64,000 nucleotides of DNA, from contig CAXHJY010000353.1 in the NCBI GenBank assembly GCA_964016885.1, positions 66,626 through 130,625 of the forward strand, read 5' to 3'. Numbering within the stretch: the stretch's first letter is position 1; each line of letters opens with the position of its first letter. Origin of the DNA: Eledone cirrhosa (lineage: Eukaryota). A program made the translations under genes and the position numbers. Positions 13,446 through 64,000 of the stretch are shown piece after piece. The notes beneath the pieces are model-generated. The model did no database searches. It was given only the letters and a program-made list of their open reading frames with translations, and was not told where the DNA came from.

Positions 13446-14013
13446 TATGAGACAGGTTGTACTGGGATACATGTTACCAGTAGTTGGTGCTACTGGTAAC
13501 ATGTATCCCAGTACAACATGTCTCATGGTCGAGTCGTTGGCGACTAAACTGGCAACCCCACCAAGGTTTCTTGGTGAGGAGGGTGACTTTGGACATCCTG
13601 CAGGACTAAAAACAAAACCTGTCAAAGGAGCTCTTAAGAGTCAATGGCCATCCAAAATCACCGGGAGAGATGACCCCTGAGCCTTTGTCAAGGCAGAATT
13701 CTAGGAGAAGGAAAACTCTGATATAACACCTGCAACCCTGATGGTATCCAATGATGTTGACTTGTTCTTCTTTTTTGGTAAATATCATCTTTGTTAAGAG
13801 AGTGGGACTGGCTTTGTGCAGTGCCTTTGCTCACTATAAAAGCTTCACGGCACAGGCATTGCTTTATATCTGGAGATCTCTCTGCACTTGTTGTCACATG
13901 GTACCATGGGCCCAGCACTATGTGTCAGTAATTGTCACAGGTGTAGTGTTTGTACCAGAGTTTTTAAGTTGCTGGCTGGACTGAAAAGTCACAATCATTC
14001 AGCGCATCGGTAG
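13446..14013 (+). mobile_element. Dispersed repeat, probable LINE (RTE-like) 5' UTR fragment, copy 1 with fold-back head
   Basis: Highly similar to 17147-17693; contains CTAGGAGAAGGAAAACTCTG, which I recall from RTE-type 5' UTRs. First ~37 bp are an inverted copy of the following sequence. Confidence 0.6.
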
Positions 14014-14397
14014 GATATGTATATATGGATATATATATGTATATATATATATGTATATGTATATATGTATATATATGTATATATATATATGTATATGTAT
14101 ATATATGTATATATATATATGTATATGTATATATGTATATATGTATATATATGTATATGTATATATGTATATATATGTATATATATGTATATATGTATAT
14201 CTATATATGTACATATATGTATATATGTATATATATGTATATATGTATATATGTATATATCTATATATCTATATATGTATATATGTATATATGTATATAT
14301 ATGTATATATGTATATATATATGTATATATGTATATGTATATATATGTATATATATATCTATATATGTATATATATATACATATATATATACATATA

Positions 14398-16758: not shown

Positions 16759-16834
16759 GCGTATAAACACACACACACACATTATATATATATATATATA
16801 CAGATGCAGATGTGTATATATGTATGTGTGTGTG

Positions 16835-17020
16835 TCAGGTCGCTCTTCAGCGCTAACGGTACATGTAACCCAGCACAACATGTACATGGTCGCGTCGTTG
16901 GCGACTAAACCGGCAACCCCACCAATCATGCATGGTGGGGAGGGTGAATTTCGACACTGCGCAGGATGAAAAACAAAACCACTCAAGCGATGGCATTATT
17001 CGAGAACGAGTTGCAGCCAT
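16835..17020 (+). mobile_element. Diverged relative of the same repeat head
   Basis: Shares GTCGTTGGCGACTAAACCGGCAACCCCACCA and AAAAACAAAACC with copies 1 and 2. Confidence 0.55.
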
Positions 17021-17146
17021 CATGCATGTATGTACGTATGTATATATGTATGCATATATGTATGTAGGTACGTATGTATATATGTATGCATATATGTATG
17101 TAGGTACGTATGTATATATCTATATATATGTATGTATATATGTATG

Positions 17147-17780
17147 TCAGGTCACCAGTTGGTGCTACTGGTAACATGTATCCCAGTACAACCTGTCGCA
17201 TGGTCGGGTCGTTGGCGACTAAACCGGCAACCCCACCAAGGTTTCTTGGTGAGGAGGGCGACTTTGGACATCCTGCAGGACTAAAAACGAAACCTGTCAA
17301 AGGTTAAAGGAGCTCTTAAGAGTCAAAGGCCATCCAAAATCACCGGGAGAGATGACCCATTAGCCTTTGTCAAGGCAGAATTCTAGAAGGAAAACTCTGA
17401 TATAACACCTTCAACCCTGATGATATCCAATGATGTTGACTTGTTCTTCTTTTTGGTAAATATCATCTTGGTTAAGAGAGTGGGACTGGCTTTGTGCAGT
17501 GCCTTTTCTCACTATAAAAGCTTCACGGCACAGGCATTGCTTTATATCTGGAGATCTCTCTGCACTTGTCGTCACATGGTACCATGGGCCCAGCACTATG
17601 TGTCAATAATTGTCTCAAGTGTAGTGTTTGCACCTGAGTTTTCAAGTCGCTGGCTGGACTTAAAAGTCACACTCGTTCAGCACATCGGTAGGGATTCTCC
17701 TACATGGATATAAAGTAGTGGCCGTACTCGAAAACGAGTTGGCAGCCACCATGTAGGGACTTTTACATCGTGACATAAGC
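17147..17780 (+). mobile_element. Same repeat, copy 2
   Basis: Direct similarity to 13487-14013; flanked 5' by microsatellite. Confidence 0.6.
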
Positions 17781-20434: not shown

Positions 20435-21530
20435 ATGGTGGCTGCAATGATGGTGGTGGTTATGCTGGTGGTTGTTATAGTAATGGTTGTGGTGGTTGTG
20501 ATAGTGGTGGCTCTGCTGGTGGAGGTTGTGTTGTTGGTTGTTATAGTGTTGATGGTGATGGTGGTGGTTGTGTTGGTGGTTGTAATAGTAATGGTTGTGG
20601 TGGTTGTGATAGCGGTGGTTGTGATAGTGGTGGTTGGTTGTGCTGGTGGAGGTTGTGTTGTTGGTTGTTATAGTGTTGATGGTGATGGTGGTGGTTGTGT
20701 TGGTGGTTGTGGTTGTGGTGGTTGTGATAGTGGTGGTTGTGCTGGTGGAGGTTGTGTTGTTGGTTGTTATAGTGTTGATGGTGATGGTGGTGGTTGTGTT
20801 GGTGGTTGTGGTTGTGGTGGTTGTGATAGTGGTGGTTGTGCTGGTGGAGGTTGTGTTGTTGGTTGTTATAGTGTTGATGGTGATGGTGGTGGTTGTGTTG
20901 GTGGTTATGATAGTAATGGTTGTGGTGGTTGTGATAGTGGTGGCTGTGCTGGTGGAGGTGTTGTTGTTGGTTGTTATAGTGTTGATGGTGATGGTGGTGG
21001 TTGTGTTGGTGGTTATGATAGTAATGGTTGTGGTGGTTGTGATAGTGGTGGCTGTGCTGGTGGAGGTTGTGTTGTTGGTTGTTATAGTATTGATGGTGAT
21101 GGTGGAGGTTGTGATGGTTGTTGTGATGCTGGTGGTGATAGTTATATTTGTGTTTCTGCTCGTAGTTGTGATTGTGGAATTGGTGGAGATGCTGCTATAT
21201 AATGGTGGTGCTAATGTTGGTTGTGATGGTGGCGGTTGTATGCCTTGTGATAATGTGGGTTTTGTTGATTGTGATAATAGCTGTTTTGTTGTTGTTGTTG
21301 GTGGTGGTGGTTGTGTTGGGTGTTACGGTGTTGATGGTGGTGGTGTTGGTTGTGTTGTTGATGGAGGTGTTTGCGTTGTTTGTGACGGCGGTGATTGTGT
21401 TTGTGTTGGTAGCTGTGATTGTGGAATTGGTGAAGATGTTGTTTTATAAAGGTGGTGCTGATGTTGGTGTTGGTTGTGATAAAGGTGGCTGTGTTGTCAT
21501 TGTTAATGTGGGAGTTGTGTTGGTGGTGGC
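20435..21530. repeat. GGT/TGT-derived minisatellite, units of ~99-126 bp
   Basis: GCTGGTGGAGGT recurs at ~20516, 20642, 20741, 20840, 20948 and 21056. Confidence 0.85.
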
Positions 21531-27137: not shown

Positions 27138-27559
27138 TAGATTGGTAGTATCGGTAGAGTGTCGGACAACATGATTGATGACGTAGAGTTACGGCCCTTT
27201 ATGATCTGAGTTCAAATCCCGCTGAGGTTACCTTTGCCTTTCATCCTTACGGGGTCGATAAAAGAAAGTACCAGCAAGGCACTGGGGTCGATTTAATCGA
27301 CTTTCCCCTCCCCTAAAATTGCTGGCCTTGTGCCTATATAAGAAACCATTCTTCTTTTTATTATTATTATTGTTGAGTAAAGTACCAGTAATGCACTGGG
27401 GTAATTGCTGGCCTTGTGCCTAAAGTAGAGACAATTATTATTATTGTTGAGTAAAGTACCAGTAATACACTGGATATTTGCTGGCCTTGTGCCTAAAGTA
27501 GAGACCATTTTTATTATTGTTGAGGACTGAGTTCAAATCCCGCCGAGGTTAGCTTTGCC
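27138..27559 (+). mobile_element. SINE family 1 plus tandem partial copies
   Basis: Full long-form copy 27138-27349, two tandem tail copies (TTGTTGAGTAAAGTACCAG...) and a B-box fragment. Confidence 0.8.
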
Positions 27560-28289: not shown

Positions 28290-29850
28290 ATAGTAGTGGT
28301 GTGATTGTTGTTGGTGGTGGTGTTGATGATGTTGGTGGTGGTAGTGTTGGTGGTAGCGTTGTTGTTGGTGTTGTTGATGGTGTGGTGTTGTTGTTGTTGG
28401 TAGTGGTGGCGGTGGTGTTGTTGTTGTTGGTAGTGTTGGTGGTGGTGGCGGTGTTGGTAGTCGTGGTGTTGTTGGTGTTGTTGGTGGTGGTGTTGTTGTT
28501 GTTGGTAGTGGCGGTGTTGGTGGCGGCGGTAGTGGGGGTGTTGGTGGGAGTGTTGGTGGTGGTGGTGTTGGTGGTGGTGGTGGTGTTGGTGTTGGTAGTG
28601 GTGTTGGTGTTGGTGGTGGTGGTGGTGTTGGTGGTGGTGGTGGTGTTGGTGGTGGTGGTGTTGGTGAAAGTGGCATTGACGGTGGTGTTGATGCTGCTGT
28701 TGATGGTGGTAGTGGTAGTGGTGGTAGTAATAGGGTTGTTGTTTGTGGTCGTTTTGTTGTTGGTGTCGGTGATGGTGGTGTTGCTCTTGTCGTTGTCGGT
28801 AGTGTTGGTGGTGGTGGTAGTGTTGTTGGTGGTAGTGTTGTTGGTGGTGGTAGTGTTGGTGGTGGTGGTAGTGTTGTTGGTGGTAGTGTTGTTGGTGGTG
28901 GTAGTGTTGTTGTTGGTGGTAGTGTTGTTGGTGGTGGTAGTGTTGGTGGTGGTGGTGGTGTTGTTGTTGGTGGTAGTGTTGTTGTTAGTGGTAGTGTTGT
29001 TGGTGGTATTGGTAGTGTTGTTGGTGGTGGTAGTGTTGTTGGTGGTGGTAGTGTTGTTGTTGTTGGTGGTAGTAGTGTTGTTGGTGGTGGTAGTGTTGTC
29101 GTTGTCGGTAGTGTTGGTGGTGGTGGTAGTGTTGTTGGTGGTAGTGGTGTTGGTGGTGGTAGTGTTGTTGGTGGTGGTAGTGTTGTTGGTGGTAGTGTTG
29201 TTGGTGGTGGTAGTGTTGTTGTTGGTGGTAGTGTTGTTGTTAGTGGTAGTGTTGTTGGTGGTATTGGTAGTGTTGTTGGTGGTGGTAGTGTTGTTGGTGG
29301 TGGTAGTGTTGTTGTTGTTGGTGGTAGTAGTGTTGTTGGTGGTGGTAGTGTTGTTGGTGGTGGTGGTAGTGTTGTTGTTGTTGGTGGTGGTAGTGTTGTT
29401 GGTGGTGGTAGTGTTGTTGTTGTTGGTGGTGGTAGTGTTGTTGGTGGTGGTAGTGTTGTTGGTAGTGTTGTTGGTGGTACTGTTGTTGGTGGTGGTGGTG
29501 TTGTTGTTGTTGTTGGTGGTGGTGGTAGTGTTGTTGGTGGTGGTAGTGTTGTTGTTGGTGGTGGTGGTAGTGTTGTTGTTGGTGGTGGTGGTAGTGTTGT
29601 TGTTGGTGGTGGTAGTGTTGGTGGTAGTGGTGGTGGTAGTGTTGTTGGTGGTAGTGTTGTTGGTGGTGGTAGTGTTGTTGGTGGTAGTGGTAGTATTGTT
29701 GGTGGTGGTGGTAGTGTTGTTATTGGTGGTGGTAGTGTTGTTGTTGGTGGTAGTGGTAGTGTTGTTGGTGGTGGTGGTGGTAGTGTTGTTGTTGGTGGTG
29801 TTTATGCTGGGAGTGGAGGTGTTGTTGTTGATGATATTGACGATGATGGG
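28290..29850. repeat. Compound GGT/GTT/AGT trinucleotide low-complexity tract
   Basis: Continuous triplet repeats for ~1.5 kb. Confidence 0.9.
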
Positions 29851-53046: not shown

Positions 53047-53139
53047 AACAAAGTCAATCTGTAAACGCAGAACTGGATATTTCAAAAAGCCTTGCAACCG
53101 GAGGAAGACAGGAAGACGATACTTTGGTTCGTGGTAACG

Positions 53140-53392
53140 TTCGCTGGCAAAGAACGGGAAAAAACGAATAATACGTCATTAATAGGAGCGGTGAAAAACA
53201 ATTACGCGCAAAGACAAAACCACGTTTATGGTATAAAAGAGGTCGTAGACTAATGTTCTCTTAGGTGGTGCATAGAGACGTTCTCTGGCAATGAACGAAA
53301 AAACGAAGATAATAAGTCATATGTGGAGCGTGGAGAACAATAGCACGCAAAGTCAAAACCACGTAAATGGTATAGCAGAAATCGTAGACTAA
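53140..53392. repeat. ~140 bp diverged tandem duplication
   Basis: CTGGCAA(A/T)GAACG..CGCAAAG(A/T)CAAAACCACGT..TCGTAGACTAA x2. Confidence 0.7.
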
Positions 53393-53520
53393 AATACTAT
53401 CAATTTTATTATTATTACTATACATACATATATATATATACAAACATATATATATATACATACATATATATATATACATACATATATATATATACATACA
53501 TATATATATATACATACATA

Positions 53521-53561
<41 letters not shown>

Positions 53562-53570
53562 ACATACATA

Positions 53571-53625
<55 letters not shown>

Positions 53626-54363
53626 ATACATATATATATACATACATATATATATATACATACATATATATATACATACATATATATATATACATACATA
53701 TATATATACATACATATATATATATACATACATATATATATACATACATACATAAAATGGCGACCGTTGTGGTCAGTGTCCGATAATCGGACGTGTGTAA
53801 TTACGGCTTACATGAAGGCAACATACCATATATTGGAAAAAGTTGAGCTACATTACGCGGTAAGATTACATACAATAATTCTACATAAGTGTTTGAACTG
53901 TAAGTGTGTTGTAAAACACCTATTTATATGAACGATACATACACTTTAACATATAAATGCAACGTTGTTATATTACATTTATAAAGAAATATACAAGTAA
54001 CGTTTTCGATTCAGAAACAAAAATATAAGTGTTTGAACTGTGAATATGTTGTGAATAGGTTGTAGATCACCTATTTATATGAATGATACATAAACTTTAA
54101 CATATAAATACAGCGTTGTTATATTATATTACATTCATAAAGGAATATACTAAGTAACGGTTCTTTTTGTTCTCGATTCAAACGATTCAAGAGCAACGTT
54201 TAAAACACAGTTGTAGAATTAAAAACTAACTGAAAAGAAATATTACTCAAGCTGTGAATAACTTTAAATTTGATTCTGACAGAACTTTGTCGTAACTTTT
54301 AAAGAAGATCATCGACTATTTTGAAAAATAAATACGAAATATTAGTCAATAGACGAACTCATC

Positions 54364-56142
54364 ATGGCAAAAAGTACAAGACTCCTTCGACCAAATCGCA
54401 ATTACAACCGTTGTACACAGTGGAGCTACGAGCTTAACAAAGTATTATATGAAGCATACAAACAATCTGAACCCCAAAAGTTCGGTTTTATGCAAAGGCT
54501 AAAAACTTTATGGAACTCCAAACACCCAGAATTAGACTTTTCTCCAAAGCATTTAAATGAACAGGCAAAACGTATCATTAGATGTAAATTGATACATCTA
54601 ACGGAATCGAGTGATACTACAAATACAGCCCTTGTAGACAACCACCCCACCTCCACTGGCAGACAAAGAGAATGGCCAGCTAAATCTAACAGTGAACAGC
54701 TCACCAACAATTTTGCTGAAATTCATCCCACTTCCACTGAAGAACAACGAGAAAGGTCAGCTGACTCTAGTAGTAATTGTCACCACATCAACAACGAGGC
54801 TGAAATTCATGACTCTACTGAACAAACAGAGCACCAAAAACTTGTGGGCTCCCTACAAGTGATATGGAATGATATGTTTCAAGAGATACACAGCCTTAAT
54901 GTGAGTGACAGACCATACAACACTAGAGTCAGTAAAGAACCCACTAAATTGGAATTGGAAGCGGTGAACGAAATAGCTGGCAATTATCTGAAGGCTATAC
55001 GATCTAAAGGTGTAGAAACGACATTTGAAACGCTTAATGTTTTGTTATATGTTTCAGCTGTCACATTGCTATCATATAACACACATCTAAAACCAAGCAA
55101 TCAAGATACAAACAGAAAGCCTGAACCAGCGTGGGGGCGAAATTTAAAAACCAAAATTTTGTCCCTGAGACGAAGTATCTCACACATCGCAGTCGTTATG
55201 AAATGCAACATAGAGAGCAACTTCACACAGCACCAGGAAGACCTAAAGAAAAAGTTAGAGAGAAGATTTGGAGATACAAAATTTAAAACTTTGAACTCCA
55301 AATTACACCAGTTGAAACAACAACTCACAGCTACAACAGAAAGACTAAAATATAAGTCAACAGCACATAAACGACAAGTGCTAAATAGATTGTTTGCCAG
55401 AGATCCTAAATCAGTTTATCGCAGCTTCGGTGGCAAAAGCTCAATCTCTGTAAATGACACCCCTTCAAAAGAACAGGTTGAGAGCTACTGGAGATCTGTA
55501 TGGGAAACGGATGACGGATTCAACAGACAAGCTAATTGGCTAAAAGAACTGGAACAGGACTACTGCCAACATGTCCAGACAAAACAATATGACATAGATG
55601 GGTCAATACTGGAAACAACTCTACAGAAAATGTCGAATAGGAAATCGCCAGGCCCAGACCTCATTACAGGATACTGGTTGAAGAATTTCACTTTCTATCG
55701 GCAAGATCTCATACGGCTGTTTACAGAAACCATTAAGGGCACACAAGAACTGCCCAGATGGTTATCAACTACCTCTACTCTCCTCATTCCCAAAAATAGC
55801 CAAACCACCCTTGCTAAAAATTACCGCCCAATTGCCTGCCAAAACATCATGTATAAATTATATACTGGGTGCCTTAATCTGTTCTTACAGGATCACTGTG
55901 CTACCAACAACATCATAACACCTGAGCAAGCTGGTGGAAAGAGGGAGGTGTGGGGTTGCATAGATCACCTACTAACTAACAAAATGATTCAGGAAAAAAC
56001 AACAAAGAATCGCAGAAACATGACTGTCGTGTGGCTGGACTATCAAAAAGCATTTGATAGTGTACCTCATGGGTGGATTGTTAAGGCTTTACAGTTAGCT
56101 AAAGTCCCACAACCATTGGTAGCTGCTGGTACACCAGTTTGA
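54364..56142 (+). CDS. Retrotransposon polyprotein, 5' part (N-terminal domain + start of reverse transcriptase)
   Basis: 592 aa ORF. N-terminus WSYELNKVLYEAY..SEP..FMQRLKTLWNSKHP resembles R4/Dong N-termini. RT motifs KSPGPDLITGYWLK, LIPK..NYRPIAC, EQAGG and WLDYQKAFDSVPH. Confidence 0.88.
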   Translation: MAKSTRLLRPNRNYNRCTQWSYELNKVLYEAYKQSEPQKFGFMQRLKTLWNSKHPELDFSPKHLNEQAKRIIRCKLIHLTESSDTTNTALVDNHPTSTGRQREWPAKSNSEQLTNNFAEIHPTSTEEQRERSADSSSNCHHINNEAEIHDSTEQTEHQKLVGSLQVIWNDMFQEIHSLNVSDRPYNTRVSKEPTKLELEAVNEIAGNYLKAIRSKGVETTFETLNVLLYVSAVTLLSYNTHLKPSNQDTNRKPEPAWGRNLKTKILSLRRSISHIAVVMKCNIESNFTQHQEDLKKKLERRFGDTKFKTLNSKLHQLKQQLTATTERLKYKSTAHKRQVLNRLFARDPKSVYRSFGGKSSISVNDTPSKEQVESYWRSVWETDDGFNRQANWLKELEQDYCQHVQTKQYDIDGSILETTLQKMSNRKSPGPDLITGYWLKNFTFYRQDLIRLFTETIKGTQELPRWLSTTSTLLIPKNSQTTLAKNYRPIACQNIMYKLYTGCLNLFLQDHCATNNIITPEQAGGKREVWGCIDHLLTNKMIQEKTTKNRRNMTVVWLDYQKAFDSVPHGWIVKALQLAKVPQPLVAAGTPV

Positions 56143-57851
56143 TCCTTAGAGGTGAGAAGGAGCAGGTTAGGACTGATAAGATACATTACCAGAAGGGCAT
56201 CTTTCAGGGTGATAGCTTGTCAGTGCTACTCTTCGTTCTCTCACTGAATCCACTATCTTACCTACTCAGGAAACAAGGTGGACAAAGAAGTGGGACCAGA
56301 AGTATCTCCCATCTTTTCTTTGTTGATGACCTGAAGTTGTATGGGCCAAATATCAATGACATCAAGAAACAATTGGACTTCATTACACAATTTTCAACCG
56401 ACATCAAAATGAAATTTGGTGAGTCCAAGTGTGCATATTTGGCAGTAAAACGTGGAAGAGCTGTGCCCTCCTCTAGAAATCTAGAGATGAACGGCCTGAC
56501 AATACAACCTCTGCAGTCAGGTGACAACTACAGATATCTTGGACAGGATGAGAATGTCAGATATGATGGACCCATAAATAAGGAGAGAACCAGAACTGAA
56601 TACCTCAGAAGAGTAAAGAAAATATGGTCATCAGAACTGTCAGCATACAACAAATACATTGCCCACAATACTTATGCTGTGCCAATTCTAACGCCAACAT
56701 TTGGCCTACTGAACTGGTCATTGCAAGAACTAAGTGAGATGGATGTTAGAACTCGAAAACTTCTCAGTGTTACTGGGAACTTTAACATCAATGGTGATGT
56801 GGATAGGCTATACTTCTCACGCAAGGAAGGTGGCCGGGGTCTAAAATCAATATTAACAACATATGAGACCCGGATAGTGACACTGAAGCAACACCTTCAA
56901 CAGAGGAAAAAGGTTGGCAACCATCTTGCCCAGGTTTATGACCATGAAAAAAGAAATATCATTAGAATAGCGACTGATCTGGAGGAGAGATATGGAATAA
57001 AGCCTGATATAAATCTCTCACCCAGAGAAATCGGAAGATCCTATTCAATGTTCAAACAAGATAAAAAAATTGACCAATTTACAAAAAAAGTTGTGCATGG
57101 ATACTTGAGGCGTAAAACACAGACCATAGAGGGGATAAACCACTCAAAAAGCCTGGCATGGAGTTCCGACAAGTTTATGACATCACACCTTGAGGGATAT
57201 CTCTATGCAATACAGGAACAAGAACTCCCTACCAAATATCTGCTGCACAAAAGAGGAGGGCCAGCAGCTGACAATAAATGTAGGCTATGTAAAACAAAGA
57301 TCGAGGATGTAAGCCACATTGTTGCCAGCTGCGAAAGAATGTCATCTCGCTACTACCTCCCCATGAGACACGATGGGATAGCTAGAACCATCTGGAACGC
57401 ACTTCGGAAAACAAAATTAACAACAAACGAGGAAGAATATATTGAGACAGATGGCACTAAGGAATACTGGTGGAACCTGAAATTAAAAACTGCCACCAAA
57501 TTAAAGCACAACCGGCCTGATATTGTAGTTTGGGACCACCCATTGAAAACGTGTTCTGTTGTGGAGATCAGCTGCCCACTTGATGTAAACGTTGTCAGAA
57601 AAATACGGGAGAAGGAGGACATCTACGGACCATTGATGAGGAGCTTACAAATCCAGTATCCAAGATACACCTTTAGCTTCATACCCATCATTATTGGTGC
57701 TACGGGTTATATACCAACCCGCTTGGACCAAAGTATGACCGAACTTGGATTTGCGGACAAAAAGCGCAGCTCCCTAATTCATAGTCTACAAATGGCTGCG
57801 ATAGCTGGCACCTTCAAAATATGCAAAATATTCTTGCGATTCAAGGGATGA
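56139..57851 (+). CDS. Retrotransposon polyprotein, 3' part (RT motifs 4-7, CCHC zinc finger, restriction-like endonuclease)
   Basis: [54 protein letters not shown] and [21 protein letters not shown]. Continues the upstream ORF in another frame after a small deletion. Confidence 0.9.
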
Positions 57852-57932
57852 CAATTTCTTTTCTTTTACAACCTTGCCACCAGGAAGGTGGCCGGTCAAA
57901 AAAATATACTCGAAATTAAGAGAAAGAGAAAA

Positions 57933-57949
57933 CATATATATATACATAC

Positions 57950-57980
<31 letters not shown>

Positions 57981-59081
57981 CATACATATATATATACATA
58001 CATATATATATACATACATATATGCATACATATATATATACATACATATATGCAGACATATATAGATACATACATATATGCATACATATATACATACATA
58101 TATATATATACATACATATATGCATACATATATACATACATATATATATATACATACATATATATATATACATACATATATATATATACATACATATATA
58201 TATATACATACATATATATATATATAGCATACATATATATATACATACATATATATATATAGTTACATATATATATTATATATACATACATAATATATAG
58301 TTACATACATATATATATATATACATACATATATATATATATACATACATATATATATACATACATTATATATATATATACAGACATACATATATATATA
58401 TATACAGACCTACATATATACATACATATATATATATACAGACATACATATATACATACATATATATATATACAGACATACATATATACATACATATATA
58501 TATATATACAGACATACATATATACATACATACATATATACATACATATTATAGTATACATACATATATAGATACATACATATATATATACATACATATA
58601 TATATACATATATATATACATATATACATACATATATGCATACATATATATATACATACATATATATATATATACATATATATATACATACATACATACA
58701 TATATATACATATATATATATATACATATATATATACATACATATATATATACATATATATATATATACATATATATATACATACATATATATATACATA
58801 CATATATATATATACATATATATATATACATATATATATATACATATATATATACATACATACATATATATATATATACATATATATATACATACATATA
58901 TACATACATACATATATATATATGCATATATATATACATACATATATATATACATACATATATATATATACATACATATATATATACATACATATATATA
59001 TATATACATATATATATATACATACATACATATATATACATATATATATACATACATACATATATAAATATATATACATAC

Positions 59082-59118
<37 letters not shown>

Positions 59119-59156
59119 CATATATACATACATATATATATATATACATATATACT

Positions 59157-59188
<32 letters not shown>

Positions 59189-59638
59189 CATATATATATA
59201 CATATATATATACATACATATATATATACATATATATATACATACATACATATATATATATACATATATATATACATACATATATATATACATATATATA
59301 TACATACATATATATATACATACATACATATATATATACATATATATATACATACATACATATATATATACATATATATATACGATACATATATATATAC
59401 ATACATACATATATATATACATATATATATACATACATACATATATATATACATACATACATATATATATACATATATATATACATACATACATATATAT
59501 ATACATATATATATACATACATACATATATATATACATATATATATACATACATACATATATATATACATATATATATACATACATACATATATATATAC
59601 ATATATATATACATACATACATATATATACATATATAT

Positions 59639-59699
<61 letters not shown>

Positions 59700-59722
59700 C
59701 ATACATATATATACATATATAT

Positions 59723-59791
<69 letters not shown>

Positions 59792-59900
59792 CATACATAT
59801 ATACATATATATATACATACATACATATATATATATATATACATACATACATATATACATATATATATACATACATACATATATACATATATATATACAT

Positions 59901-59953
<53 letters not shown>

Positions 59954-59978
59954 CATACATACATATATACATATATAT

Positions 59979-60011
<33 letters not shown>

Positions 60012-60118
60012 CATACATACATATATACATATATATATACATACATACATATATACATATATATATACATACATACATATATATATACATACATACATAT
60101 ATATATACATATATATAT

Positions 60119-60149
<31 letters not shown>

Positions 60150-60463
60150 CATACCTACATATATATATATACATATATATATTTACATATATATATATAC
60201 ATATATATATACATACATATATACATATATATATACATACATACATACATATATATATATACATACATATATATATATACATACATATATACATATATAT
60301 ATACATATATATATACATACATACATACATATATACATATACATACATATATATATATACATACATATATACATATATATATACATACATACATATATAT
60401 ATATACATACATATATATATACATACATACATATATATATATACATACATATATATATATACA

Positions 60464-60499
<36 letters not shown>

Positions 60500-60598
60500 C
60501 ATACATATATACATACATACATACATACATATATATATATATATACATACATACATATATATATATATACATACATACATATATATATATATACATAC

Positions 60599-60657
<59 letters not shown>

Positions 60658-60663
60658 CATACA

Positions 60664-60734
<71 letters not shown>

Positions 60735-60774
60735 ATACATATATATATATATATATACATACATATATATATAT

Positions 60775-60813
<39 letters not shown>

Positions 60814-60814
60814 C

Positions 60815-60845
<31 letters not shown>

Positions 60846-61160
60846 CATATATATATACATATATATATATACATATATATATATACATATATATATATAC
60901 ATATATATATATACATATATATATACATACATATATATATACATATATATATACATACATATATATATATACATATATATATACATACATATATATATAC
61001 ATACATATATGCATACATATATACATACATATATATATATACATACATATATGCATACATATATACATACATATATATATATACATACATATATATATAT
61101 ACATACATATATATATATACATACATATATATATATATACATACATATATATATACATAC

Positions 61161-61195
<35 letters not shown>

Positions 61196-61994
61196 CATAC
61201 ATATATATATATATACATACATATATATATATATACATACATATATATATATATACATACATATATATATATATACATACATATATATATATATACAGAC
61301 ATACATATATATATATACAGACCTACATATATACATACATATATATATATACAGACATACATATATACATACATATATATATATACAGACATACATATAT
61401 ACATACATATATATATATATACAGACATACATATATACATACATACATATATACATACATATATATATACATACATATATATATACATACATATATATAT
61501 ACATACATATATATATACATATATATATACATATATACATACATATATGCATACATATATATATACATACATATATATATATATATACATATATATATAC
61601 ATACATACATACATATATATACATATATATATATATACATATATATATACATACATATATATATACATATATATATATATACATATATATATACATACAT
61701 ATATATATACATACATATATATATATACATATATATATATACATATATATATATACATATATATATACATACATACATATATATATATATACATATATAT
61801 ATACATACATATATACATACATACATATATATATATGCATATATATATACATACATATATATATACATACATATATATATATACATACATATATATATAC
61901 ATACATATATATATATATACATATATATATATACATACATACATATATATACATATATATATACATACATACATATATAAATATATATACATAC

Positions 61995-62029
<35 letters not shown>

Positions 62030-62067
62030 CATATATACATACATATATATATATATACATATATACT

Positions 62068-62099
<32 letters not shown>

Positions 62100-62548
62100 C
62101 ATATATATATACATATATATATACATACATATATATATACATATATATATACATACATACATATATATATATACATATATATATACATACATATATATAT
62201 ACATATATATATACATACATATATATATACATACATACATATATATATACATATATATATACATACATACATATATATATACATATATATATACATACAT
62301 ATATATATACATACATACATATATATATACATATATATATACATACATACATATATATATACATACATACATATATATATACATATATATATACATACAT
62401 ACATATATATATACATATATATATACATACATACATATATATATACATATATATATACATACATACATATATATATACATATATATATACATACATACAT
62501 ATATATATACATATATATATACATACATACATATATATACATATATAT

Positions 62549-62607
<59 letters not shown>

Positions 62608-62630
62608 CATACATATATATACATATATAT

Positions 62631-62701
<71 letters not shown>

Positions 62702-62804
62702 CATACATATATACATATATATATACATACATACATATATATATATATATACATACATACATATATACATATATATATACATACATACATATATACATAT
62801 ATAT

Positions 62805-62857
<53 letters not shown>

Positions 62858-62882
62858 CATACATACATATATACATATATAT

Positions 62883-62917
<35 letters not shown>

Positions 62918-63199
62918 CATACATACATATATACATATATATATACATACATACATATATACATATATATATACATACATACATATATATATACATACAT
63001 ACATATATATATACATATATATATACATATATATATACATATATATATACATACATACATACATATATACATATACATACATATATATATATACATACAT
63101 ATATACATATATATATACATACATACATATATATATATACATACATATATATATATACATACATACATATATATATATACATACATATATATATATACA

Positions 63200-63235
<36 letters not shown>

Positions 63236-63314
63236 CATACATATATACATACATACATACATACATATATATATATATATACATACATACATATATATAT
63301 ATATACATACATAC

Positions 63315-63400
<86 letters not shown>

Positions 63401-63405
63401 ATACA

Positions 63406-63476
<71 letters not shown>

Positions 63477-63516
63477 ATACATATATATATATATATATAC
63501 ATACATATATATATAT

Positions 63517-63559
<43 letters not shown>

Positions 63560-63592
63560 CATATATATATATATATATACATATATATATAC

Positions 63593-63643
<51 letters not shown>

Positions 63644-63817
63644 CATATATATATATACATATATATATATACATATATATACATACATATATATATATAC
63701 ATATATATATACATACATATATATATATACATATATATATACATACATATATATATATACAATATATATACATACATATATATATATACATATATATACA
63801 TACATATATATATATAC

Positions 63818-63857
<40 letters not shown>

Positions 63858-64000
63858 ACATATATATACATACATATATATATATATATACATATATATA
63901 TACATATATATATACATATATATATACATATATATATATACATATATATATACACATATATATATACATATATATATATACATATATATATATACATATA
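57933..64000. repeat. >6 kb (TA)n/(TACA)n microsatellite with ~2.9 kb higher-order repeat
   Basis: Rare variant words recur at a ~2.91 kb offset (see findings). Confidence 0.93.

What the first reader, a model, noticed from the sequence alone, without database searches (positions are those of the whole stretch)
53754..57932. Young, almost intact R4/Dong retrotransposon apparently targeting TA/TACA microsatellite
Seen: ~1160 codons without premature stops apart from one frameshift, sharp junctions with microsatellite at both ends, no poly(A) or TSD. Established: R4/Dong elements use an RLE endonuclease and several families are microsatellite-specific. Inference: a recently active family with (TA)n or (TACA)n specificity, possibly undescribed, and of interest as a site-specific insertion enzyme.
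Basis: partly seen in the sequence, partly recalled or inferred. Interest (0 to 1): 0.7.

Follow-up and report, generated by a model that had tools for sequence, protein, structure and literature searches.

The report
CATA-repeat-targeting R4/Dong retrotransposon family
This is a broken copy of a jumping gene whose thousands of copies sit almost only in runs of the four-letter repeat CATA, nearly always facing the same way and mostly joined at the same letter; it likely finds these runs with its own DNA-binding and cutting domains, a known habit of its group but with a target repeat not found in the papers searched.

Summary
Confirmed and sharpened. The element (53755-57932) is a single-ORF non-LTR retrotransposon: predicted Myb/SANT-like domain, reverse transcriptase, CCHC finger and restriction-like endonuclease, the R4/Dong layout. 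This copy is broken by a 22-bp deletion. The target is (CATA)n, not (TA)n: 2,893 of 3,555 exact 3' ends are followed by CATA (background 0.7%), only 192 by a TA run. 98 of 108 5'-truncated copies also have CATA repeats upstream, so CATA is a target and not only a tail. 6 of 29 full-length copies have an open ORF, and two differ by 2 substitutions, so the family is recently active; the window copy is from a slightly older wave. A second family (4,561 ends) shares the target; an RTE-like LINE and a SINE use the opposite strand. Published Dong elements target (TAA)n. A CATA target was not found in 9 literature searches, but Repbase/Dfam could not be checked, and no labelled R4/Dong sequence was available for the tree. 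This scan earlier noted an analogous two-strand arrangement on AAT repeats elsewhere in this genome. Verdict: a new target variant of a known kind.

The parts
53419..53754 (+). Upstream CATA/TA microsatellite tract (target, 5' side)
   Evidence: 39 CATA, 0 TATG
53755..57932 (+). Full-length R4/Dong-type non-LTR retrotransposon, broken copy
   Evidence: termini shared with other copies; 315 exact 5' ends and 3,555 exact 3' ends genome-wide
53755..54363 (+). 5' UTR with an internal tandem duplication of about 150 bp (53885-54180); no HDV-like ribozyme detected
54364..57851 (+). Single ORF (1,169 aa in intact copies), interrupted here by one frameshift
54421..54585 (+). N-terminal three-helix Myb/SANT-like domain (aa 20-74), predicted; no zinc-finger cysteine pair in the first 420 aa
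   Evidence: done on the intact copy L164
55642..56540 (+). Reverse transcriptase core (FQGD 56202, FVDD 56319); end approximate
56128..56131 (+). Site of the 22-bp deletion that shifts the frame within the RT (exact place ambiguous by a few bases)
57279..57332 (+). CCHC zinc knuckle (C-x2-C-x8-H-x4-C)
   Evidence: C, C, H, C kept in 71-72 of the 72 rows with residues there
57513..57626 (+). Restriction-like endonuclease motif PD...E...K
   Evidence: D1060 72/72, D/E1075 70/70, K1091 70/70; R2 structures are the top Foldseek hits
57852..57932 (+). 81-nt 3' UTR with a predicted hairpin and a purine-rich end, no poly(A)
   Evidence: z -3.1 for 57845-57945
57933..64000 (+). Downstream CATA/TA microsatellite (target, 3' side), beginning with CATA at the junction

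Best explanation
It is a frameshifted full-length copy of a high-copy, recently active single-ORF retrotransposon of R4/Dong architecture whose copies lie in (CATA)n tracts in a near-fixed orientation and mostly one phase, likely because its predicted Myb-like domain binds upstream CATA repeats and its restriction-like endonuclease nicks the TATG strand to prime reverse transcription. Shown: the domain layout, the target, its phase and polarity, CATA at the 5' junctions of truncated copies, 5' microhomology, longer upstream than downstream tracts, and intact near-identical copies. Inferred from R2 biochemistry: the nick falls between G and T of TATG (top strand CATA|CATA, uncertain by one shared A); the Myb domain reads about 30 bp upstream; the cDNA end anneals to upstream CATA to complete the 5' junction. 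Each insertion leaves CATA on both sides, so further Dong-type, RTE-like and SINE copies can pile into the same tract.
For: Phase: 2,893 of 3,555 exact 3' ends are followed by CATA and 2,292 by CATACATA, against backgrounds of 0.72% and 0.049%. Of 30 ends sampled from the 354 not followed by C, 28 still have CATA repeats within 24 nt. Target, not only tail: among 137 copies with both junctions, 98 of 108 truncated and 29 of 29 full-length copies have CATA repeats directly upstream (background 0.8%); reverse orientation is seen 1 time on the 5' side and 0 times on the 3' side. Microhomology of 2 nt or more at 40 of 82 scorable truncated junctions, against 8% expected, p 2e-22. Perfect tract median 39 nt upstream against 19 nt downstream, n=95, p 2e-6; this fits the upstream footprint of R2 (Myb at -31 to -34, PMC10499050 passages). 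Domains. Activity: 6 of 29 full-length copies have open ORFs; L170 and L180 differ by 2 substitutions at unlinked loci. Read-derived contigs of two separately labelled organisms continue into CATA repeats behind the 3' end, so this is not an assembly artefact.
Against: No enzyme assay and no empty allele were obtained. No labelled R4/Dong sequence was found for the tree, and that tree is a quick one without bootstrap. The Myb assignment rests on a modest fold match (best Z 5.8, a range common by chance; atlas score 0.85) plus the published report for this clade. 10 of 108 truncated copies lack upstream CATA and about 19% of 3' ends are not followed by CATA. The upstream excess is equally compatible with repeats added at the 5' junction. 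No 5' HDV-like ribozyme was detected, although Bombyx Dong and Ascaris R4 have one.
Confidence: 0.85

Rival explanations
1. Targeting comes mainly from RNA-DNA pairing: transcripts read through into the downstream repeat and carry a (CAUA)n tail that anneals to TATG at nicks made by a loosely specific endonuclease.
For: There is no poly(A) tail. The first flanking letters are CAT(A) even where the tract ends at once (L079, L193, L169, L096). The RTE-like LINE and SINE show the mirror-image behaviour on the TATG strand.
Against: Upstream tracts are longer than downstream ones, which a 3' tail does not predict. The conserved N-terminal Myb-like domain is the known targeting module in R2. The two mechanisms may act together.
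Confidence: 0.25
2. The enzyme adds CATA units at the 5' junction by reiterative copying or template jumping, so the element lengthens its own target.
For: 5' tracts are longer and stay purer at 16-48 nt from the junction. In L081 and L090 an imperfect 18-20-nt unit is duplicated on both sides, followed on the 5' side by 28 and 13 extra repeat bases. In L176 a (CAGA)n run matches the element's own sequence at the truncation point.
Against: Only 2 cases look clean among the 22 listed, and L081 lies in a region of complex duplications. L062 and L201 show duplication with no extra bases. Selection for a long pure upstream binding site explains the asymmetry without new synthesis. Later slippage can lengthen tracts.
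Confidence: 0.2
3. Insertion is random, and the copies survive in, or later acquire, microsatellite flanks.
For: The genome is very rich in microsatellites.
Against: Fixed phase and polarity, about 110-fold enrichment of CATA at the 3' junction, avoidance of the 13-fold commoner TA tracts, and the same pattern in near-identical young copies.
Confidence: 0.02

Closest known systems
Dong (Bombyx mori Dong, DongAg, DongBg; R4 clade); PMC3812793 and PMC7998251, passages read
   Same: Single ORF with RT and restriction-like endonuclease, N-terminal Myb/SANT without zinc fingers, microsatellite target
   Different: Target is the tetranucleotide (CATA)n, not (TAA)n. No 5' HDV-like ribozyme detected. 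In a quick tree it falls in a deep clade apart from the insect homologs; the AAT-flanked relative in the same genome is only 29% identical over the 496 residues aligned.
Octopus Dong-R4 LINEs (PMC13282606, PMC9115989, PMC8967140; passages read)
   Same: Abundant in cephalopods and in part recently active (5 families, 1,129 recent insertions in O. vulgaris). The nearest named homolog here is from Argonauta hians (63% identity).
   Different: The passages seen report no insertion target. This family may be one of those libraries' entries; that was not testable.
R2 (Bombyx, Taeniopygia, Platysternon; PDB 8gh6, 9nl3, 9dou, 9nl2)
   Same: Nearest solved structures over RT plus endonuclease (Foldseek E 2e-35; profile E 3e-70); target-primed mechanism with upstream recognition as the model
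   Different: R2 has N-terminal zinc finger(s) and targets 28S rDNA; identity is only 16-19%
Waldo (R1 clade), ACAY microsatellite-specific; PMC3812793, passage read
   Same: Targets a tetranucleotide class that includes (ACAT)n, the same repeat
   Different: AP-type endonuclease and an unrelated clade; the same repeat reached independently

Membership tests
R4 clade (R4/Dong) | Single ORF with RT, CCHC knuckle and C-terminal restriction-like PD-(D/E)xK endonuclease | tested here: met
   1,169-aa ORF; RVT_1 E 1e-24; motifs near-invariant in 70-72 aligned rows; R2 structures are the top hits
R4 clade (R4/Dong) | N-terminal Myb/SANT-like domain without zinc fingers (PMC7998251) | tested here: met
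   Three helices at aa 22-74, pLDDT about 90. The top VIA-align rows are mostly Myb/SANT/trihelix (Zeste Z 5.8, rmsd 2.5, 64 aligned; TRF1 Z 5.6), modest scores. No C-x2-4-C in aa 1-420.
R4 clade (R4/Dong) | Insertion into rDNA or a microsatellite target | tested here: met
R4 clade (R4/Dong) | RT phylogeny groups with labelled R4, Dong or Rex6 | tested here: inconclusive
   No hit was named Dong or R4. The quick tree of 51 rows (42 of 239 stored proteins, 8 genomic fragments and the query) holds only unlabelled or generically named homologs.
R4 clade (R4/Dong) | 5' HDV-like ribozyme, as in B. mori Dong and Ascaris R4 (PMC3774820) | tested here: inconclusive
   No ribozyme family in the Rfam scan. 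The descriptor search gave no strict hit, and loose hits were within the shuffle range. Such ribozymes diverge and can be missed.
Dong in the strict sense | (TAA)n target | tested here: not met
   The target is (CATA)n; filed under the R4 clade, not as Dong proper
R2 clade | N-terminal zinc finger plus Myb, and rDNA target | tested here: not met
   No N-terminal cysteine pair; microsatellite flanks
NeSL / HERO / CRE clades | RT phylogeny with labelled members | not testable with these tools
   No labelled sequences available. That these clades carry N-terminal zinc fingers is recalled, not from a call.

The most novel reading that the evidence does not exclude
A deep sub-lineage of R4/Dong switched from (TAA)n to (CATA)n. 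It has kept that target across at least two families only 52-60% identical in the RT core, and it lengthens the tract at each insertion by adding CATA units at its 5' junction. Together with RTE-like elements and SINEs that enter the same tract from the other strand, this makes a self-feeding system that builds the genome's CATA microsatellites and retroelement trains.
Probability: 0.2. Interest if true: 0.7.

Novelty: new variant of a known kind. Interest (0 to 1): 0.42.

Why it matters
It gives a natural pair for asking how an R4/Dong protein changes target: CATA-specific and AAT-flanked relatives share one genome and have a compact Myb plus endonuclease module without zinc fingers. Intact, near-identical copies exist, so the proposed role of the Dong Myb domain, so far argued from homology only, can be tested directly. 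It also helps explain why CATA tracts in this octopod-like genome are crowded with retroelements, and it warns that insertion callers and microsatellite markers will do poorly at such sites. As a gene-insertion tool it is less attractive than R2, because the target is a dispersed repeat.

Tried and rejected
(TA)n as target: rejected. CATA as a mere 3' tail: rejected by the truncated 5' junctions. A 20-nt target-site duplication in the window copy: uninformative; no fixed duplication length emerged from other copies. Empty-allele test on L220 by laying public contigs: no result, because the repeat flank was skipped. No RNA holder was listed; this says nothing on expression. Search for a labelled Dong/R4 protein through an insect homolog: none named. 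Foldseek on the N-terminal model: no match at E 0.001 or better. HDV-like ribozyme: not found. The careful tree did not finish, so the quick tree was used; L233 is a long-branch, half-filled row and only a nominal outgroup. The gapped 5' pattern double-counts on the forward strand and was not used as a count. Codon differences between copies mix in post-insertion decay and were not used as a selection test. Papers not held: PMC3312299, PMC4400214, 10.1038/s41586-025-08877-4. PMC7650587, PMC3124438 and PMC10294476 (passages) gave no CATA/TATG target. Scan look-ups by sequence and by words returned nothing.

Full report
Observation. The window holds a 4.18-kb element from 53755 to 57932 between two CATA/TA microsatellites. 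Two overlapping reading frames give about 1,162 codons from ATG 54364 to the stop at 57851, with a single frame break. Against an intact copy the break is a 22-bp deletion near 56128; the same extra bases are present in the other copies whose site was printed. There is no poly(A) tail. A 20-nt direct repeat flanks the copy but recurs 4 and 91 times in the two arrays, so no target-site duplication can be claimed.

Protein. A natural intact copy (L164) encodes 1,169 aa. Pfam finds RVT_1 and zf-RVT. In an alignment of 73 homologs the CCHC knuckle and the endonuclease residues D1060, D/E1075 and K1091 are kept in 70-72 of the 70-72 rows with residues there, and the first 420 aa hold no C-x2-4-C pair. 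The AlphaFold model (mean pLDDT 88) matches R2 structures best (E 2e-35, 16-19% identity), ahead of LINE-1; the profile search agrees. Residues 22-74 fold as three helices. Their top structural neighbours are mostly Myb/SANT/trihelix domains such as Zeste and TRF1 (Z 5.8 and 5.6). These scores are modest, Foldseek gave nothing significant, and the atlas hit to Rap1 Myb scored 0.85, a lead only. Schön et al. (PMC7998251, passages) describe this layout, Myb/SANT without zinc fingers, for R4/Dong, and give (TAA)n as the Dong target in most insects, molluscs and cnidarians.

Clade and host. No homolog named Dong or R4 was returned, so the RT-phylogeny test is inconclusive. A quick tree without bootstrap (51 rows: 42 of 239 stored proteins chosen by hand, 8 genomic fragments and the query) puts the family next to an Argonauta hians protein (SH-aLRT 99). 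Both lie inside a deep clade (100) of mostly unnamed sequences, apart from the insect homologs. The host is therefore likely an octopod; this is inferred, not shown.

Target. The exact 26-nt 3' end occurs 3,555 times. It is followed by CATA 2,893 times (81%), by CATACATA 2,292 times (64%) and by a letter other than C 354 times. Of 30 of those exceptions, 28 have CATA repeats within 24 nt. In 200 kb from 20 evenly spread stretches, CATA starts at 0.72% and CATACATA at 0.049% of positions, and TA tracts outnumber CATA tracts 329 to 25.

Target or tail. I scored 137 non-redundant copies with both junctions. Copies whose 5' end lay beyond the fetched locus or with under 60 nt of flank were dropped. 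The sample comes mostly from the largest contig, favours the younger end type, and includes copies from 30 loci picked for atypical 3' ends. CATA repeats lie directly upstream in 127 and downstream in 124; the reverse orientation appears once upstream and never downstream. Among 5'-truncated copies, 98 of 108 have upstream CATA against a background of 0.8%, which a 3' tail cannot produce. At least one exception (L218; also L103) looks like a later insertion of an ATT-ended short element into the retrotransposon. Read-derived contigs from two separately labelled organisms in different studies continue into CATA repeats behind the 3' end (18 and 42 contigs).

Junction mechanics. At 40 of 82 scorable truncated junctions the element continues the CATA phase for 2 nt or more, against 8% expected (p 2e-22; 26 of 108 not scorable). 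This suggests that the cDNA end anneals to the upstream repeat. Perfect tracts are longer upstream than downstream (medians 39 and 19 nt; 69 against 25 of 95 copies; p 2e-6), and upstream tracts are nearly always at least about 30 nt. In R2 the Myb domain binds at -31 to -34 and downstream DNA is dispensable for the first nick (PMC10499050, passages), so upstream recognition is the simplest reading. Addition of repeats at the 5' junction is the rival: L081 and L090 show a duplicated imperfect unit plus extra repeat, while L062 and L201 show duplication without extras. The empty-allele test gave no result.

Age and activity. There are 315 exact 5' ends, about 9% of the 3' ends. 6 of 29 full-length copies keep an open ORF of 1,163-1,169 aa. 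Twelve of 26 aligned copies are 99.2-100% identical to each other, and L170 and L180 differ by 2 substitutions. The window copy is 98.2-98.7% identical to copies of its end type and belongs to a slightly older wave.

Neighbours. A second family, 52-60% identical in the RT core, has 4,561 exact 3' ends; 27 of 30 sampled are followed by CATA. A LINE with RT and C-terminal C2H2 fingers (the label RTE is recalled from its motifs) and a 608-bp short element with a similar 3' tail end in TATG-strand repeats: 9 of 9 and 67 of 74, none on the CATA strand, against 145 of 157 on the CATA strand and none TATG-only for this family. These loci were gathered next to Dong-type copies, so the counts show polarity, not genome-wide frequency. 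R4-like elements ending in AAT repeats also occur (L119, L150); L150 is only 29% identical to this protein. Earlier notes of this scan describe the analogous two-strand sharing on AAT/TTA repeats; I had seen the CATA version before that look-up, and those notes are not independent support.

What is known. Microsatellite targeting by Dong (TAA), Waldo (ACAY), Mino, Kibi and Koshi is reviewed in PMC3812793 (passages); Togen and HERO cases are in PMC4640811 (passages). Dong-R4 is abundant in cephalopods (PMC8967140, PMC10294476; passages), with 5 families and 1,129 recent insertions in O. vulgaris (PMC13282606, passages) and a full-length Dong in O. bimaculoides (PMC9115989, passages); none of these passages names a target. 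RTE elements generate microsatellites (PMC2887409, passages). Bombyx Dong and Ascaris R4 self-cleave at the 5' end (PMC3774820, passages); I found no such ribozyme. A CATA/TATG-specific R4/Dong was not found in the searches. Repbase, Dfam, Kojima and Fujiwara 2004, the three papers not held and all supplements were not seen, and any of them could contain it.

Verdict. A real, well-supported, recently active R4-clade family with a precise (CATA)n target. The kind of element and the habit are known; the target repeat, its sharing by two divergent families and the 5'/3' asymmetry appear unreported in what I could read. New variant of a known kind, interest 0.42.

Noticed in passing
window 13482-14033 and 17146-17750; related piece 16834-16986: Copies (94-96% identical) of the 608-bp short element that shares a 3' tail with the RTE-like LINE and sits on the TATG strand of these microsatellites.
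   Followed up: partly
L221-L250; L192, L204: Second R4/Dong-type family with 4,561 exact 3' ends and the same CATA phase; its 3' UTR is itself rich in CA/CATA-like runs.
   Followed up: partly
L119, L150: R4-like elements whose 3' ends run into AAT repeats; L150 is 29% identical to this protein.
   Followed up: partly
window 27360-27524; L103, L218: An ATT-ended short element, seen as a 73-bp tandem unit in the window, abuts internal ATT-starting sites of the retrotransposon in two loci.
   Followed up: no
L176 5' junction: The upstream tract changes from CATA to CAGA units that match the element's own sequence at its truncation point.
   Followed up: no
L098 (= L111) 5' junction: The only copy with an inverted (TATG) tract upstream.
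   Followed up: no
L017/L169, L024, L198, L205: Head-to-tail arrays of this family separated by CATA spacers of 9-117 nt.
   Followed up: partly
window 53137-53392: 139-bp unit repeated 1.8 times between two microsatellites just upstream of the element.
   Followed up: no
window 20448-21136 and 28296-29800: Long degenerate TGG/GTT triplet arrays, one with a 108-bp higher-order period.
   Followed up: no
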